Below are positions 6,001 to 12,000 of a DNA stretch of 64,000 nucleotides, piece by piece. The stretch is taken from NCBI GenBank assembly GCA_000002445.1, contig CM000208.1:608001-672000 (forward strand), written 5' to 3'. The position numbers are program-made. Each line of letters opens with the position of its first letter. The first letter of the stretch is position 1. The DNA comes from Trypanosoma brucei (taxonomy: Eukaryota).

Positions 6001-9000
6001 TGAGGAAGTATTGGGGCGCCACAAGTATTTTTTTTCCCCCCTTCTTTTTCCCCTTTCCCCTTTCCCCTTTCTTTCTTCTTCTTATTCGTCTTCTTCTTCT
6101 TGTAAAATGCGGCATGTAAGGGCAACCTCTCCACCACACATAGGCTGGAAGTTGTGTGAGACCGTGCGGCCTCCTTTTCCACCGTCTGTCTTTTGTTGCT
6201 TCTGTTTTGTTTTTTTTTGATGATGATGATGATGGTGTTGTTGTTGTTGTTGCCTCTCTTTCTTTTTTTTTTCTTCCCCTCCTCTTACCGCCTTTCCAAC
6301 ACTCATTTCACTTTCAATTTTTTTTTTCCTGTCTCTCCCTCTGTTTCTTTTCCCCACGAACGACAATTTTTTATTACCTGTTTTGTTAATCAGTTTGTGT
6401 AATGTGTGTACTCGTGTGATGGGGAAAGATGTGGTGATGCAAGACACGCAATGTATGCTACGGTTCTTTTTTTTTTATTATTTTCCAGATCATTGTTCTC
6501 AAACAACCAAATAAAAACAATTATATATATGTATAATATATATATAAAGAAAAAAAGAAAGTAAATAAGTTACACGGAGAAAGAAAAAAAAAGGAGGAAG
6601 GGAGGAGTACTCAGTTTACTTCCCGATTTTGCTCTCGAGTTTTATTTCCTTGTCTTTGCATTTTGTATACTTTTTTTTTACTTACTGTTGACACTCCCTT
6701 GTGGAGTGTTGATTTGTAAGGGAAAAAGACAAGGGGAGGAGGAGAAGAGGGAAAAATTAATTTTTTTTAAAAAAAAGAAAAAAAAAGCACCCTCATGTGT
6801 GTTGTCCTTTTTTTTTCTTTAATTCCCATGCTACTATTCCATACCCTCGTTATTATTATTATTATTATTAACAAAAGCGTAAAAGGTACCCAAGCGTAAG
6901 CGCAGTGCAACCATTTCTTTTTTTTCTTTTTTGTTCTAAATGTTTATGTCTCGCTCAACCACCCCATGTCCAGTGCACCTCATGAAGGAAGGGGTATTTA
7001 ATGAAAGAGAAAAAAAAAAAGTAAAGTGAAAAAAAAAGGAGAAAAGATAAAAAAAAAAAAAAAGGGAGGGAGGGAGAAAACAGGGCAAGAGAGAAAATGT
7101 GGAGTAGTTTTGTTTTTTTTTTTAAAAAAAAACAAGGAACGAAGAAGTGAAGGGGAAAAAGGAGAGAGAGAGAAATGTGAATATTTATGCTCCCGGTCTC
7201 TCTTTTCTTTTTTTTCTTTTTTTTTCTCCCGTCCTTTTTCCCTCCCTCCCTTTCTTGCCGCTTGTGGGGATTTTATGAGTTTATTTTGATTATTTTCTCC
7301 ATCCGCGTTTTCCTCATATGTTCTTAGGTGCTATGGGTTCTGATGTCATTCCTTCTTATTTTCCATACCACTTTCTCTTCTTATCATGTTGTTAATCTCA
7401 TGAGATATTTATATATTTATATATTTATGCCGATGAAGAACCGTTCGCCTTTTGTTGTTGTTGTTGTCGTTGGTGTCGTTTCAGATGTAACACCCTTCCC
7501 TATTGTCTTGCTTCCTCCGCTGTGAGGTCGCGTTTTTGTACACTTGTGGTTGTCTGTTTGTTTTTTGTTTTTTCTTTTTGTCGTTGTTGGGATTTTTTTT
7601 TTCTGTTACCACGGTTCCCATTAAAAAAATAAATATATATATATACTATACGATGTTACCACTTCGCTGATAATTTCTTCATATTCATTCGCGCATGTGG
7701 AAATCATATGGGTTATGTGTGAAGATCGGAACGACTTTTGTAACCGGTCCCTGCGTCTTATCTCAATTGTCTACTCTTGTCCCCTTTTTTAAAAATAAAC
7801 CTTCCAACCTCTACTTTCTGTATCACTGTTATAATTCTTGAATAAGCAAAGAAAATACAAACGACAAGCGAATGCGCAGTGAAATAGTTTTTCTTTTTAA
7901 ATCAAATAGAAAAGCAAGGGACTAAACTGTGTGGACCCGGCTGAGCACTGCGTAGGTGATTCTCTTTTATCGTACAACACAGGAGCAACCTTTTAAGAAG
8001 AAAGGACCGCCAGGTGCAGTTTGTAGAACTTCCATTCGCACAGGAGGGGAAAAAAGGAAGTGGATTATATTAGACTAAACCACGCGGGTCCCCCAGACAA
8101 AAGGGGAAAAGTAAGCCAAAATTCATCCGCTCGATATTTGAACGTCCCCCCCCCCCCAAATGATGGTGAACTTCCATCGATTTATGGTTGAAAAAGATAT
8201 TGCGTGAAGCAACACATCCCTCCACCACCAACACACAACTCCAGTAGGGAACGTTTGGTTGGATTGTGTAGGCATAAACGGCCTTTTGCCCGTACCGCCT
8301 TGAATTTTGTAATGCGGGTGTGCCTATGCTGAAGTGTTGTGCGGACCCATCTAAAAGGATGGCTGTCAAAAGAGTTGGATCCCCATCCATTTTCCATCGT
8401 TCGCACCCAGAGGCCAGTTGCACTATTTCCAATATGTGACAAAGGCGGTCTCTTCCCTATTTTTCCTGTTTCCTCTCCCCTTCTTCATTATTTGGTATTG
8501 ATGACGAGCGTGCCGTCGGTCCCACTCAAGACTGTAACCGTAAAAAACGAAATCAGTGTTAGTTCAAACCATACTTTCAGGTGAAATGGGTTTCTCCGCA
8601 TCTCCGTTTCATTGGATGGTGACTAGTCTACACCCTGGCGATGCCGGCCACCTCAACGTGGTGCCCAGGGTCCAGTGCCCCGTATCATCGGGGGAAGCCA
8701 AGAGCCAGCAGAGTTCCTTTCATGGGGAACACTTCTGTGCTCCGGCTACGGCATCATACAGCACAGGGATCAACAGCGTCTTGCTGGGACACCGTTTTTC
8801 ATTTGTCGGTCCTTGGGCACGTGCCAGCGTTGCCATCAGCAGTATCATCCGCACTAAGATGCTGCTGTCCGGTGATGTGGAAGAGAATCCCGGCCCGTCG
8901 TTGCGCCGGATGCAGTGAAACTGCGCCGGGCTATCTCAAGGAAAGAGATTAGCACTCCACAAAACCCTTGTTGATAAGCGGATCGCCTTTTGTCTGTTGA

Positions 9001-12000
9001 GCGAGACAAGGATGACGCCTGGAGAGGCGGCTTGCTTTAGCGTTGCTGGTTACCTGGCTAGTCTACACTTTGCGTCCAAATGGGTAGCGAGGAGAAACGA
9101 ATAATACGGCGACGAAGCGAGGCCCAGGGAAGGACCACTTCAATGCGGAAACGGATTCGGGAATCCCCTCGGACCAAATGGTTTTGCGGTGGGGAGGCGC
9201 CCCGCGGAATTCCCAGACATCGGGGGGAGTGCGTTATGGTATTCTGTTTTCCTCTCCTTTAGGTCCGCGTCCCGACGGCGAGTCATAATACAGAGGTGTC
9301 CAAGCGTGTTTTTTTTTCCTTTTAAGGAACCACTTGGGGACCGAAAATGGAGGTCGGTGGGGGCAAGAAACAAAGAAGTTGGGGGAGCGAATGGAAATTG
9401 CCATGAAGAAAGGAGAGGTGGAGGCGGTTGCCCACCAGACTCCTTCCGCTACCGCTTGGGTGCAAAACACAAAGTGTTCCTCGCATGCCGAAACACCGCG
9501 GCCTCGGGAGCGCGGAGTCGACGTCGCGTAAGGAATTTGAGAAAACGCTCCGGAAAGTTCAGGCGAAGGGAAGCCGTTGCGCCTCTGGTTGCCCAAACGC
9601 TTCGGTTTCAGAGCTGGCCACGGGGCCCGGTTTGGGCTCTTCAACGAACAAATTGTGAATCCGCCGCTCTAACGAGTGGAATCTGACCGCGGGTGGAATG
9701 ATGGAAAAGGGCACCGAGGCTTATATTTGCAGAATCCGGTGGCTTTTTAGCCCAAAACACACCTCAGGACGATGGGCAGGGTAATCGCTTGACGCCCCAG
9801 CTGGATGACGGTGGATTCGCCACCACTGCAACGATGGGAAGCGGGAACAAGGATGGGAAAGGTGTCAAGTAAATAAGGGATGAAAAAGCAAGCACAAACC
9901 TCCCATCGTGTAGGCGGCGTTCACGCGATGGGTGTGGAGACCTCGAGGAGATTTACAAACAGAGGCAACCACGGAACTGAACCAACTGAATGAAGCCATC
10001 CCCCCCCCCATTGTGTGTGTGTGTGGGGGGGGGGGGAAGGATGCAGAAAATAACGCGCGTGAAACAACCTTGCGGTGACGGAGAGTGCGCTAACATAAAA
10101 AAGAGGGGAAGGTGGTCTCAACAAGTTAAAAATAATGTAGGGAATACTGAGGCCATGTGCCTGTTTGTGGCACGCTGAAGGTGGCGAGGGAAATACATGG
10201 ACAGGTAAATTGGAGAGGGCAAATGCGGAAAAGTGAAGTGAGATGAAGTGAAGCCTCCGCCAGCATTCTTCGGTATGGCAGATACCAACAAATCAGCGGC
10301 TGCATTGGACGGGAAATGCCACCATCCAATGAAACGGAGATGCGGGGAAACCCATTTCCCCTAAAAGTATGGTTTGAACTAACAGTGATTTAGACGGCGC
10401 CCCCTTTCCGATCCCTGTTGAGACCTCATACCGCGGTTGGTGATGAGAGGATTCCTGACATTATATTTGTAGGCGGTCGCGGACGTTCCCCTTCTCACAG
10501 CCATGCCACGTCCCACTGTTTTTTTTTCACCTTATCCTCCACTGTGGGTGTTCGTTGTTTTTTTCTTTTTTCCCTTACTCTCCATTTTTTTTTTTTAAAG
10601 TTCCAATTATCCCTCTTTCTGGTACCGAAACCACGATATTCATTGTGCGCCTTAACCGAGAAACGGCTGCGCCACAGATGGAATCCATAGAAGTGGATGA
10701 AGCGGTTCAGCAGCATTTGCTAAACTGCGTGTCTTACGTGATGGAGTGCGCACAAACATCAAGAAACGCCAAAATCCTATCGAGGGGGGGGAAAGTGGGG
10801 GAAAAGGTGGAACACATTGTGGTACGAACTTCTCCAGAAGAACTGTAAGACAAAATGTCAAGAGAAACAAGGCGAAGCCAGTCGCGATGGCAGCAACCAC
10901 CATCTTCAAGAGCAAAAAAAAATTTTGTAAAGGGGGTATAAAAAGAAGCAAATGGACAATCCGTAACTTGAAAAACAGAAGTGTAACTATATAACTTTCA
11001 CCGGTGCCTCCAGTTTTTTTTTTCTTGTTTCTCGTGCATCCCTTCCTGACACACATGCACATTTTGATGTGCACGTTAGTTGCATTGCTGTGTAACACGA
11101 CCGCAGTAAAACAAAGTTCTGGCACCCACAAATGAAAATTGGGTAAAAACAGCAAGAACTTATATTCAAAAATGCCCACAGGCGTACTTATAGTCATTAC
11201 CTCAGACTTAATATAAGCGAATGCATCAATAAAGGTATACTGCCTTTCCCCCGACCTACGAGAGGCATTTCAGGTTTTCATACCCTTTACCAATAGCATT
11301 GAATGCTTTTTAATAATAATAAAATAATTCTCCACAGAAGCAAAAGGGGGGTTTATGTCACTTCGAACATCCTAATGCTTTCTCGCGGTCCTATAATTCA
11401 TACCCATAGCTTAGCTTAAGGAACCTCTACGAGAGAGGTGCGTCACTTTCAGCACGTTAATGCAGGCGGTTCGAATGTATAAATGAGACGTTGCCTTGCT
11501 AGTTATTGTTCCATGGGAGGATTATCTCCACTCATAACCCCTCGCCCCCCAAAAAACAACACACAAAGACACTGAGATTCACCACATTTGACAACATTCC
11601 CCCTAAAGGGTTTAAAATGTTGAATCCCTCTCGCTTCTGCACGCAGGTCCCGTGCTTGTAAGTACCGTGACCCCTAGCAACAGCTCCCGTGCCCTGCTTC
11701 GTGCAGATTAAGGTTTGCACAGTCGCTGCTGGCGGAGTTGTATCATCCCCCATTATGTACATTTATCTACGCATTACCGAGCACCTTCGCAATACATCCG
11801 GAGTTTTGGAAACTCGGTCACATAAAGTCAGCACGGACCCTCCCAGTCCCTACGCACTTCCCCTGTGGATCTTTTTGCTCTCCAGTGCCTTTGCGTTTTC
11901 TGCTCTTTCCAGACGGAGGCGCGGATCCAGCTGAGGTGGCACCATTCACATTTGACGAGGGTTCACGGCCGCGTTGTCGTCAGTGGGGAGTTTCGGAAGT

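What the first reader, a model, noticed from the sequence alone, without database searches (positions are those of the whole stretch)
8550..10381. Composite nested repeat structure at a convergent strand-switch region: a TSD-flanked ingi/RIME-type fragment inside 73-bp inverted repeats
A 73-bp sequence (8550-8622) recurs as a near-perfect inverted copy 1.69 kb away (10308-10381). Just inside the left arm sits a ~435-bp retroposon fragment (Pr77 + N-terminal ORF + 2A). It is bounded by an exact 11-bp direct repeat, ctagtctacac (8623-8633 and 9058-9068), as expected of a target-site duplication, but it has no poly(A) tail and so is not a canonical RIME or ingi. The rest of the interval is a GC-rich island plus a C10/G12 hairpin. 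The inverted-repeat arm does not belong to the canonical Pr77 sequence, so it is a separate repeat family or the remnant of a larger rearranged element. The architecture resembles a foldback or cruciform, and its position where two polycistronic units converge suggests a role in termination or a rearrangement hotspot.
Basis: partly seen in the sequence, partly recalled or inferred. Interest (0 to 1): 0.65.

Follow-up and report, generated by a model that had tools for sequence, protein, structure and literature searches.

The report
Retroposon stub and short inverted repeat
Where two gene arrays of Trypanosoma brucei chromosome 10 run into each other, there is a dead 420-bp front end of an ingi retroposon beside a 72-bp sequence that recurs inverted 1.7 kb away; both look like neutral debris in an already known small-RNA-producing termination zone, not a new device.

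Summary
The arms are 8550-8621 (+) and 10320-10391 (-), 68/72 identical, with sharp ends. This is the only complex repeat of 35 nt or more in the 64-kb window.

Positions 8633-9054 are nt 1 to about 421 of a Tbingi retroposon: Pr77, the 2A peptide, the start of the endonuclease domain and one in-frame stop. It is 95% identical to a full-length copy. It has no 3' half and no poly(A). It is flanked by a target-site duplication (exact 11-mer; ancestrally 12-14 nt). It is therefore neither a complete ingi nor a RIME.

The arms and the 1.25-kb GC-rich spacer match nothing in a full-length ingi, in Pfam or Rfam, or (for the spacer's longest open frame) in 1.84 billion proteins.

The locus is the convergent strand-switch region between Tb927.10.2390 and Tb927.10.2400/2410. 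This is "CTU36", a published DCL2-dependent siRNA locus. T. b. gambiense carries the whole structure, and T. equiperdum and a Logan assembly carry the parts they cover. The arms diverge at the local intergenic rate without compensation.

Best reading: fixed neutral relics. Whether the arm is a dispersed repeat could not be tested. Interest is low to moderate.

The parts
4827..5966 (+). Last gene of the left polycistronic unit: casein-kinase-I-like protein kinase, Tb927.10.2390
   Evidence: Pfam Pkinase on the syntenic gene calls. The published Tb927.10.2390 probe primers match exactly at 4830-4855 and 5410-5434.
8550..8621 (+). Left arm of the inverted repeat (72 nt in the window; ancestrally 74 nt, to 8623)
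   Evidence: Present in T. b. gambiense (L006) and T. equiperdum OVI (L008).
8621..8632 (+). 5' copy of the target-site duplication: GACTAGTCTACA, ancestrally GGCTAGTCTACA. The exact 11-mer shared with the 3' copy is 8623-8633.
   Evidence: The canonical Tbingi duplication is 12 bp (PMC3820030).
8633..9054 (+). 5' fragment (nt 1 to about 421) of a Tbingi non-LTR retroposon, with no 3' half and no poly(A). Contains Pr77 at about 8633-8711, 2A coding at 8838-8897, an in-frame TGA at 8916-8918 and the first ~45 codons of the AP-endonuclease domain.
   Evidence: 95.2% identical to L007 2486-2898, the start of a full-length ingi. tblastx extends the match to 9054. Protein hits are 93-97% identical to T. 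brucei ingi fragments. Junction sequence read.
9056..9067 (+). 3' copy of the target-site duplication (GGCTAGTCTACA). The exact 11-mer is 9058-9068.
   Evidence: An identical junction is present in Logan contig L010 and in DAL972.
9069..10319 (.). GC-rich (0.50-0.59), purine-skewed spacer of unknown origin. It carries a 193-codon open frame (9105-9683, +) that 1-nt indels between strains disrupt.
   Evidence: Composition. No Pfam domain. No similarity to ingi or to the window's own genes. Only the same-locus ORF was found among 1.84 billion representatives. Indels at 9309 and 9336 relative to DAL972.
10000..10036 (.). C10-ATTG(TG)n-G12 homopolymer/microsatellite hairpin, polymorphic between strains
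   Evidence: -32 kcal/mol, z = -3.1. DAL972 has two fewer C and a T-to-G change at 10024. A Logan contig breaks here.
10320..10391 (-). Right arm of the inverted repeat (74 nt from 10318 in the ancestral state)
10652..11197 (-). 181-codon ORF at the position where DAL972 annotates a 180-aa minus-strand gene. By position this is probably Tb927.10.2400; that identification is inferred, not shown.
   Evidence: L006 12149-12691, minus strand. PMC4162612 names Tb927.10.2400 as the right-hand border of this strand-switch region.
11946..13721 (-). GP63/leishmanolysin-family surface protease, Tb927.10.2410, in the right polycistronic unit
   Evidence: Pfam Peptidase_M8, E = 3e-120. The published Tb927.10.2410 primers match exactly at 13695-13718 and 13114-13136.

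Best explanation
The window is T. brucei-group chromosome 10. The finding lies in the convergent strand-switch region between Tb927.10.2390 (casein kinase I) and Tb927.10.2400/2410 (GP63). This is the published siRNA locus 'CTU36'.

Two unrelated-looking relics sit there.

(1) A dead-on-arrival Tbingi insertion holding only nt 1 to about 421 of the 5.2-kb element. A flush 12-14-nt target-site duplication of canonical length shows that it went in by the element's endonuclease/reverse-transcription route. Because it has no 3' half and no poly(A), reverse transcription most likely started on a 3'-shortened RNA or primed internally. That step is inferred.

(2) A 72-74-bp unique sequence present twice in inverted orientation, 1.7 kb apart. 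This is most simply a small local inverted duplication of roughly the same age as the divergence among T. brucei haplotypes.

Both relics are present in T. b. gambiense, and the left arm with the 5' junction is also present in T. equiperdum. Both drift at the neutral rate.

Functionally the structure is a passenger. Polymerases reading in from both units make overlapping transcripts, which nuclear Dicer (DCL2) turns into siRNAs; this is shown for the locus in the literature. Two further contributions are inferred and unmeasured. The ingi stub matches the very abundant ingi siRNAs and carries a Pr77 promoter/ribozyme module pointing into the region. The arms could form a 72-bp intramolecular RNA stem in any read-through transcript. 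Neither is needed for termination.
For: Identity of the locus:
- 19-kb collinearity at 98.3% with T. b. gambiense DAL972 chromosome 10.
- Four published primers for Tb927.10.2390 and Tb927.10.2410 match exactly.
- CTU36 gave 8,088 AGO1-bound reads, falling to 1.8% of wild type in dcl2-/- (PMC3447711 supplement).
- Transcripts from this region rise on RBP33 depletion (PMC4162612).

The ingi stub:
-.
- A 12-bp duplication is the family norm (PMC3820030), and the observed repeat is flush with both ends.

The arms are not ingi or RIME and are not a common ingi 5' flank.

No RNA gene.

No coding origin for the spacer.

Neutral drift:
- Window versus DAL972 differs at 3 of 144 arm positions (2.1%).
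- This compares with 1.9% in the spacer, 2.3% in the right intergenic region and 3.5% in the ingi stub.
- Lineage-specific changes hit single arms only. Two of them break one base pair of an internal 7-bp palindrome without compensation.

Retroposons pile up at strand-switch regions generally (PMC4035085). An independent full-length ingi-clade element lies downstream of the CK1 orthologue in T. melophagium.

The arm duplex as RNA is predicted at -120 kcal/mol.
Against: - The arm's identity ends 1-3 nt inside the target-site duplication. That is almost exactly at the endonuclease's first nick. For unrelated events I estimate a chance of roughly 0.5-1%, post hoc. This hints at a mechanistic link that a 'two independent relics' model does not explain.
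- A 3'-truncated, tail-less but duplication-flanked ingi is atypical. I found no described precedent, so the priming step is conjecture.
- The genome-wide copy number of the arm is unknown.
- No outgroup (T. congolense, T. vivax) could be examined. Polarity (which arm is the copy) and age are therefore inferred only from 2 fixed differences in 74 nt.
- siRNA counts for CTU36 come from a 15-kb interval in which reads over repeats may have been multi-mapped. Any contribution of the arms or the stub is unmeasured.
Confidence: 0.6

Rival explanations
1. Coupled origin. One abnormal retrotransposition or break-repair event at the ingi endonuclease cut produced both the tail-less 5'-only insert and the right arm. 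The right arm would be a templated, inverted copy of the 74 bp that ended at the broken DNA end, pasted 1.25 kb downstream.
For: - The arm identity stops 1-3 nt into the 12-nt duplication, at the first nick.
- Both features are of similar, recent age. The arms differ ancestrally at 2 of 74 positions; the stub is 95% identical to a full-length copy.
- The insert itself is abnormal, with no 3' end.
- T. brucei uses microhomology-mediated end joining, and templated insertions are a hallmark of that pathway in other eukaryotes (PMC12426944).
Against: - Templated insertions are generally under 25 bp. This one is 74 bp, copied from 1.7 kb away.
- I found no convincing microhomology at either junction of the right arm (reading).
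- The coincidence is post hoc.
- The inner flank of the right arm has no Pr77 trace.
Confidence: 0.15
2. The 74-bp unit belongs to a dispersed short repeat family, and the pair here is two family members. In the extreme form, they are the terminal inverted repeats of a foldback or MITE-like DNA element 1,842 bp long, into which ingi later inserted.
For: - Both ends of the unit are sharp in both copies.
- The unit length and paired inverted arrangement resemble terminal inverted repeats.
- Copy number could not be tested genome-wide.
Against: - No further copy in the 64-kb window or in about 90 kb of other T. brucei-group loci.
- No duplication flanks the outer ends (left ...AAAAAACG|, right |AGACGGCG).
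- No transposase-like ORF or Pfam domain between the arms.
- The spacer's longest open frame has no relatives outside T. brucei.
- Surveys of 57 trypanosomatid genomes found no class II elements (PMC12278014).
Confidence: 0.1
3. The inverted repeat is a selected functional element of the termination zone. It would act either as a DNA cruciform or R-loop-type roadblock, or as a hairpin-RNA trigger that seeds DCL2-dependent siRNAs and heterochromatin-like marks at the end of the two units.
For: - Location at a convergent strand-switch region that produces above-average siRNA numbers.
- A strong predicted RNA duplex of -120 kcal/mol.
- The structure is retained in T. b. gambiense, and the parts covered are retained in T. 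equiperdum and a Logan assembly.
Against: - The arms are no more conserved than neighbouring intergenic DNA. They accumulate uncompensated single-arm changes.
- All 49 surveyed convergent regions make siRNAs, so the repeat is not required (PMC3447711).
- dcl2 knock-out did not change the levels of the two flanking mRNAs.
- The published siRNA-producing inverted repeats are 422-10,011 bp and 99-100% identical, a different scale.
- A 1.7-kb spacer disfavours cruciform extrusion (established knowledge).
Confidence: 0.06
4. The arms are a pair of small RNA genes (tRNA, snRNA, snoRNA or similar), as are often found at trypanosome strand-switch regions.
For: The length (72-74 nt) is tRNA-like, and the location is typical for Pol III genes.
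Against: - ARAGORN finds no tRNA in the window.
- Rfam finds nothing at gathering thresholds, and nothing on the arms at E of 10 or better except an SgrS chance match.
- Neither strand of either arm folds better than shuffles, with z from -1.05 to +0.39.
- Substitutions break the one small hairpin.
Confidence: 0.02
5. Two ordinary ingi/RIME elements sit head-to-head, and the arms are part of the canonical element sequence.
For: None found.
Against: - BLASTN (word size 7) and tblastx of 8300-10700 and 6000-11900 against a full-length Tbingi with flanks hit only 8633-9054.
- There is only one Pr77 in the window.
- The inner flank of the right arm has no Pr77 signal.
Confidence: 0.01

Closest known systems
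Tbingi (ingi-clade non-LTR retroposon of T. brucei) and its deletion derivative RIME
   Same: - Pr77/79-nt 5' signature.
- N-terminal ORF with the 2A peptide, and the start of the AP-endonuclease domain. DNA is 95% identical to a full-length copy; protein is 93-97% identical to other copies.
- A target-site duplication of the family's characteristic 12 bp.
   Different: - Only nt 1 to about 421 are present, with no RT or RNase H region, no 3' 250 bp and no poly(A).
- LINE-type copies are normally truncated at the 5' end, not the 3' end.
- RIME joins the first ~250 nt to the last ~250 nt plus poly(A). Here the homology runs on past nt 250 and the 3' half is missing, so this is not a RIME.
CTU36, one of 49 convergent transcription units that yield DCL2-dependent siRNAs in T. 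brucei (Tschudi et al. 2012, PMC3447711). The same region yields RBP33-controlled transcripts (PMC4162612).
   Same: It is this very locus. The flanking genes Tb927.10.2390 and Tb927.10.2410 are identified by exact primer matches.
   Different: Those papers describe small-RNA and transcript abundance over a 15-kb interval. The text and supplements I read do not mention the ingi stub, its duplication or the 72-bp inverted pair.
Long inverted repeats IR1-IR7 of T. brucei (siRNA sources; Tschudi et al. 2012)
   Same: An inverted pair separated by a spacer, able to form hairpin RNA when transcribed through, and located in a region that makes siRNAs.
   Different: IR1-IR7 have arms of 422-10,011 bp at 99-100% identity. 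Here the arms are 72-74 nt at 94-97% and drifting. The pair was below the size range reported from that survey, and nothing shows it produces siRNAs itself.
MITE/foldback-type class II elements
   Same: Sharp-ended inverted terminal sequences of about 70 bp bracketing a non-coding interior.
   Different: No flanking target-site duplication, no transposase, no other copies seen. The host lineage is reported to lack class II elements altogether (PMC12278014).
Polymerase-theta-type templated insertions at repaired double-strand breaks
   Same: A short stretch copied in inverted orientation from nearby DNA. The source segment ends at a known enzymatic break site.
   Different: The size (74 bp versus the usual under 25 bp), the distance (1.7 kb), and no clear junctional microhomology. 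This is a purely inferential comparison.

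Membership tests
Tbingi (ingi clade non-LTR retroposon) | Conserved 77-79-nt 5' signature (Pr77) | tested here: met
   8633-8711 is 87-97% identical to the Pr77 of five other T. 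brucei-group copies at non-syntenic loci, and 95% identical over nt 1-413 to a full-length element.
Tbingi (ingi clade non-LTR retroposon) | Coding homology to the ingi ORF (N-terminal region, 2A, AP endonuclease) | tested here: met
   Hits at 93-97% identity to T. b. gambiense, T. b. equiperdum and T. b. brucei ingi fragments, E down to 2e-37 for non-syntenic copies. Only the first ~45 endonuclease codons are present.
Tbingi (ingi clade non-LTR retroposon) | 12-bp target-site duplication flanking the element | tested here: met
   GRCTAGTCTACA at 8621-8632 and 9056-9067 (11 exact; 14 nt with one mismatch), flush with the homology ends. The 12-bp norm is from PMC3820030.
Tbingi (ingi clade non-LTR retroposon) | Complete ~5.2-kb body with RT and RNase H, ending in the shared 3' region and a poly(A)/A-rich tail | tested here: not met
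   Homology ends at ingi nt ~421 (window 9054). The next bases are the duplication, with no A-run. Nothing else in 6000-11900 matches ingi. This is an ingi-derived fragment, not an ingi.
RIME | First ~250 nt of ingi joined to the last ~250 nt, plus poly(A); about 500 bp in total | tested here: not met
   Homology continues past nt 250 through the 2A peptide into the endonuclease domain. RIME-type ORFs (P0128, P0131) diverge after ...PVMW. The 3' half and the tail are absent.
Convergent strand-switch region / CTU36 siRNA locus | Two polycistronic units converging, flanked by Tb927.10.2390 and Tb927.10.2410 | tested here: met
   Gene orientations. Four published gene-specific primers match exactly.
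Convergent strand-switch region / CTU36 siRNA locus | DCL2-dependent small RNAs from both strands | not testable with these tools
   Taken from PMC3447711 supplement 3: 3,842 top-strand and 4,246 bottom-strand reads, falling to 1.8% of wild type in dcl2-/-. No read data were available here to place them relative to the arms or the stub.
Class II (TIR/MITE/foldback) transposable element | Terminal inverted repeats | tested here: met
   72-74-nt arms at 94-97% identity.
Class II (TIR/MITE/foldback) transposable element | Target-site duplication immediately outside both termini | tested here: not met
   The outer flanks ...GTAAAAAACG| and |AGACGGCGCC share no direct repeat.
Class II (TIR/MITE/foldback) transposable element | Transposase gene, or multiple dispersed copies if non-autonomous | tested here: inconclusive
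   No Pfam domain in the open frames between the arms. The longest frame has no relatives outside T. brucei. No extra arm copy in the window or in other loci. The whole genome could not be searched.
Small RNA gene (tRNA, snRNA, snoRNA) | Match to a covariance model or tRNA detector; a stable conserved fold | tested here: not met
   ARAGORN found 0 genes. Rfam gave nothing on the arms apart from a chance SgrS match at E = 1.3. Fold z-scores range from -1.05 to +0.39.
T. brucei long inverted-repeat siRNA loci (IR1-IR7) | Arms of 422 bp or more, essentially identical (99-100%) | tested here: not met
   Arms are 72-74 nt, 94% identical in the window and 97% ancestrally. Criteria are from PMC3447711 Table 3.

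The most novel reading that the evidence does not exclude
The 74-bp unit is a member of a so-far unrecognised short repeat family with sharp ends, in T. brucei. The pair would be a MITE- or foldback-like element, or a sequence mobilised by the ingi machinery. It would also supply a preferred ingi endonuclease target at its very end. That would explain why the insertion sits exactly at the arm's boundary. Trypanosomatids are currently held to have no class II or MITE elements, so a real family of this kind would be new for the lineage.
Probability: 0.05. Interest if true: 0.7.

Novelty: new member of a known kind. Interest (0 to 1): 0.25.

Why it matters
As it stands, the finding adds anatomical detail to a strand-switch region that is already used as a model locus for siRNA production (CTU36) and for RBP33-dependent silencing.

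A practical point follows. The locus contains an ingi stub, so multi-mapping ingi siRNAs may inflate its read counts. It also contains a 72-bp inverted pair that could add hairpin RNA.

Two mild curiosities could repay a cheap genome-wide check:
- An endonuclease-type insertion that kept only the 5' 8% of the element. This bears on how ingi reverse transcription is primed.
- The arm's end coincides with the nick site. This bears on whether retroposon nicks cause local rearrangements in a genome reported to repair breaks by microhomology-mediated end joining.

If the arm proved to be a dispersed repeat, that would be of real interest for trypanosomatid mobilome biology.

Tried and rejected
- tRNA, Rfam (gathering and E up to 10) and single-strand folding of the arms gave nothing.
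- Extending the inverted repeat after computationally excising the retroposon gave no extension. A weak similarity that I saw by eye between the sequence after the 3' duplication and the inner flank of the right arm is not above shuffles.
- A Pr77 trace next to the right arm is not above shuffles.
- Exact scans for arm 20-mers in JGI metagenome contigs and in bacterial/archaeal genomes found 0 matches, as expected. These collections do not hold trypanosome genomes.
- A concatenated query of 12 spurious ORFs from 8070-11197 against the 5.8-billion-protein set returned no hits. Low-complexity words probably swamped the candidate list, because the known DAL972 ORFs of this locus were not recovered. 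I do NOT count it as evidence.
- Spacer origin: Pfam on the ten longest stop-free frames, tblastx against ingi and tblastn with all window proteins, and HMMER against 1.84 billion representatives found only the same-locus ORF.
- Looking for an empty site or alternative haplotypes: exact-protein look-ups retrieved DAL972 (full locus), T. equiperdum OVI (the contig breaks inside Pr77) and Logan contigs (short). All show the filled state. Look-ups for ORFs 8556-8918 and 10652-11197 found nothing.
- Conserved upstream target motif: the 45 nt upstream of six other ingi-clade copies share nothing obvious with the arm.
- Another 5'-only ingi fragment (nt 1-308, L009) has no duplication. The TSD-flanked state here is therefore not the rule for such stubs.
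- T. congolense and T. vivax synteny could not be reached.

Full report
**1. The observation**

The inverted repeat has arms at 8550-8621 and 10320-10391. They are 72 nt long, 68/72 identical and 1,698 nt apart.

Two arm 20-mers each occur exactly twice in the window, against 0.00-0.01 expected from shuffles. A whole-window scan shows this is the only complex-sequence repeat of 35 nt or more in 64 kb. The identity stops abruptly at both ends. This holds even when the retroposon is removed computationally. A faint continuation that I thought I saw is not above shuffles.

The 11-mer ctagtctacac is exact at 8623-8633 and 9058-9068. The GC-rich island and the C10-(TG)7-G12 hairpin are also real.

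**2. Where this is**

The casein-kinase-I ORF (4827-5966) has a 99% match only in Logan assemblies. The next-best named hits, at 53-56%, are T. grayi, T. melophagium, T. cruzi and T. rangeli. A search with the retroposon N-terminus returned T. brucei-group proteins at 93-97% identity.

One of these hits, P0121, is the ORF of this very locus in T. b. gambiense DAL972. Its contig (FN554973.1:555733-576335, L006) is collinear with window 1-19113 at 98.3% identity.

The probe primers published for Tb927.10.2390 and Tb927.10.2410 match the window exactly, in the kinase and in the GP63 gene. Upstream genes are on the + strand: a TPR protein and the kinase. From 10652/11946 onward the genes are on the - strand: GP63, a receptor adenylate cyclase and a metacaspase.

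The finding therefore lies in the convergent strand-switch region that Tschudi et al. call CTU36. That locus gave 8,088 AGO1-bound small-RNA reads from both strands. The count dropped to 1.8% of wild type without the nuclear Dicer DCL2, and the flanking mRNA levels were unchanged (PMC3447711). Transcripts from this same region accumulate when RBP33 is depleted (PMC4162612).

**3. The retroposon fragment**

Window 8633-9046 aligns to the first 413 nt of a full-length Tbingi (L007 2486-2898) at 95.2%. At the codon level the match continues to 9054, reading ...FSVAGY.

The fragment carries:
- Pr77;
- the 2A peptide SSIIRTKMLLSGDVEENPGP (8838-8897);
- an in-frame TGA (8916-8918), which is TGG in DAL972;
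- the first ~45 codons of the AP-endonuclease domain.

Nothing else in 6000-11900 resembles ingi. No A-run precedes the 3' repeat.

It is not a RIME. RIME ORFs such as P0128 and P0131 switch to the 3' half after about nt 250. Here the homology runs on past that point and the 3' half is absent.

The flanking repeat is flush with both ends of the homology. In DAL972 position 8622 is G, which gives GGCTAGTCTACA on both sides. That is 12 nt, the length reported as characteristic for Tbingi/RIME (PMC3820030). Counting the preceding T and the ambiguous first C of the element, the repeat is 14 nt. A chance flush 11-mer has a probability of about 1e-6 to 1e-5 (my calculation).

The insertion is therefore endonuclease-mediated. 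A later deletion that happened to end exactly at the poly(A)/duplication boundary is very unlikely. I infer, and have not shown, that reverse transcription began on a 3'-shortened ingi RNA or primed internally.

Another 5'-only stub (nt 1-308, L009) has no duplication, so this clean state is unusual. One protein from a bloodstream expression site (P0122) loses ingi homology within about 10 nt of the same position. This hints at a recurrent breakpoint, but I could not follow it up.

**4. The arms**

The arms match nothing in a full-length ingi with its flanks. They match nothing in the 45 nt upstream of six other ingi-clade copies, five from T. brucei and one from T. melophagium. They match nothing in any other locus I held. 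The head-to-head-elements scenario is refuted.

They are not RNA genes:
- no tRNA in the window;
- no Rfam hit on the arms;
- folds no better than shuffles.

A five-way alignment gives the ancestral arms as 74 nt with 2 fixed differences. Later changes each hit a single arm in a single lineage:
- G to T at 8582, shared by the window and T. equiperdum OVI;
- C to T at 8595, in the window only;
- G to A at 8622, in the window and OVI;
- one change in the right arm of DAL972.

Two of these changes destroy one base pair of an internal GGGGAAA/TTTCCCC palindrome without compensation. Divergence between the window and DAL972 is 2.1% in the arms. It is 1.9% in the spacer, 2.3% in the right intergenic region and 3.5% in the ingi stub. 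There is therefore no extra constraint, no concerted evolution and no sign of selection for pairing.

**5. The spacer**

The interval 9069-10319 is GC-rich and purine-skewed on the + strand. It holds a 193-codon open frame. The evidence against a coding origin is:
- no Pfam domain in the ten longest frames;
- no similarity to ingi or to any gene of the window;
- only the same-locus ORF among 1.84 billion representative proteins;
- 1-nt indels between strains that shift the frame.

Its origin stays unknown. One early protein search with concatenated ORFs was uninformative and is disregarded.

**6. Conservation of the structure**

DAL972 carries both arms, the stub, both duplications (one with a G-to-C change) and the spacer. 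The T. equiperdum OVI contig carries the left arm and the 5' junction, and breaks inside Pr77. A Logan contig carries the 3' junction and the spacer as far as the C-run. No empty site was found. T. congolense and T. vivax could not be reached.

In T. melophagium the kinase orthologue is also followed by a strand switch. A full-length ingi-clade element lies about 3.3 kb downstream of it in the same orientation. Given the evolutionary distance and the youth of the T. brucei stub, I take this to be an independent insertion. It agrees with the reported accumulation of these elements in strand-switch regions (PMC4035085).

**7. How it most likely works**

*Shown in the literature for this locus.* Both units read into the region, and the overlapping transcripts give DCL2-dependent siRNAs.

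*Inferred.*
- The stub matches the most abundant class of siRNAs (ingi/RHS, 52% of annotated reads). It brings a Pr77 module, described as both promoter and HDV-like ribozyme, that points into the region.
- Any transcript crossing both arms can form a 72-bp stem, predicted at -120 kcal/mol.
- Neither feature is needed. All 49 surveyed convergent regions make siRNAs.
- A DNA cruciform across a 1.7-kb spacer is implausible (established knowledge).

My best explanation is fixed neutral debris (confidence 0.6).

**8. What remains odd**

The arm identity ends 1-3 nt inside the duplication, at the endonuclease's first nick. For unrelated events this is roughly a 0.5-1% coincidence, judged post hoc.

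A coupled origin is possible. In that model the right arm is a templated inverted copy made during repair of the same break (confidence 0.15). Against it, such insertions are usually under 25 bp (PMC12426944), and I saw no junctional microhomology.

A dispersed repeat or MITE-like reading is not excluded, because no trypanosome genome could be searched at the DNA level. It fails the flanking-duplication and transposase tests. It also runs against surveys that found no class II elements in 57 trypanosomatid genomes (PMC12278014). I give it a confidence of 0.1 in broad form and 0.05 in the strict novel form.

**9. Verdict**

The TSD-flanked, tail-less ingi 5' stub, the non-ingi arms and the convergent setting are all right. 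A role in termination, a foldback structure and a rearrangement hotspot are unsupported.

The locus itself is already known as CTU36. The stub and the short inverted pair are ordinary kinds of feature with two mildly unusual details.

Noticed in passing
L011 14384-19500 (T. melophagium JAJSEB010000024.1): About 3.3 kb downstream of the casein-kinase-I orthologue, just past a strand switch, lies a full-length ingi-clade element in the same orientation as the T. brucei stub. tblastx to Tbingi covers the endonuclease, RT and RNase H regions. It is probably an independent insertion into the equivalent region.
   Followed up: partly
Protein P0122 (BES15S03c, T. b. brucei 927 expression-site ORF; no DNA held): Its ingi homology ends after ...FSVAGYQH, within about 10 nt of the truncation point of the window's stub (...FSVAGY). 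Two 3' breakpoints this close in a 5.2-kb element hint at a preferred breakpoint near nt 420-430.
   Followed up: no
L009 9993-10298 (T. b. equiperdum CM010675.1): Another 5'-only Tbingi fragment (nt 1-308, 95% identity) inside a same-strand gene array. No copy of its upstream 8-14-mers occurs within 6.5 kb downstream, so it has no recognisable target-site duplication.
   Followed up: partly
window 8916-8918 and L006 10001-10603: The in-frame TGA of the stub is TGG in T. b. gambiense. There a 200-aa ORF spanning 49 nt of flank, the arm, the duplication and the stub is annotated 'hypothetical protein, unlikely'.
   Followed up: yes
window 8582 and 8595: The two derived substitutions in the window's left arm fall on the two partners of one base pair of a 7-bp palindrome (GGGGAAA-TGGG-TTTCCCC). 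They turn G-C into T-T. They arose in sequence, since T. equiperdum OVI has only the first. The change is not compensatory.
   Followed up: yes
window 10000-10036: The C10/(TG)7/G12 tract is length-polymorphic. DAL972 has C8 and a T-to-G change at 10024. It is also where a Logan contig ends, so it behaves as an unstable microsatellite and not as a conserved hairpin.
   Followed up: partly
window 10513-10600 and 10555-11197: Immediately right of the right arm the + strand turns pyrimidine-rich, with long T-runs. Two ORFs overlap on opposite strands: 10555-10848 (+) and 10652-11197 (-). The compositional switch point of the two units may therefore lie right of the inverted pair and not inside it.
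   Followed up: no
window 7058-7097 / 7217-7256 and 6747-6785 / 6918-6956: Purine-tract/pyrimidine-tract mirror pairs (about 40 nt, 74-75% complementary, 120-130 nt apart) lie in the region downstream of the kinase gene. They are low-complexity sequence.
   Followed up: no
window 23113-29275: A roughly 6-kb gene-free interval separates minus-strand genes (up to the metacaspase) from plus-strand genes. This is a divergent strand-switch region in the same window and was not examined.
   Followed up: no
Technical note. The homology search returned no T. brucei-group orthologue of the kinase from NCBI, only a Logan cluster. Yet the contig index holds the gene in DAL972 and T. equiperdum OVI. Absence from that search is therefore not evidence of absence from public genomes.
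   Followed up: partly
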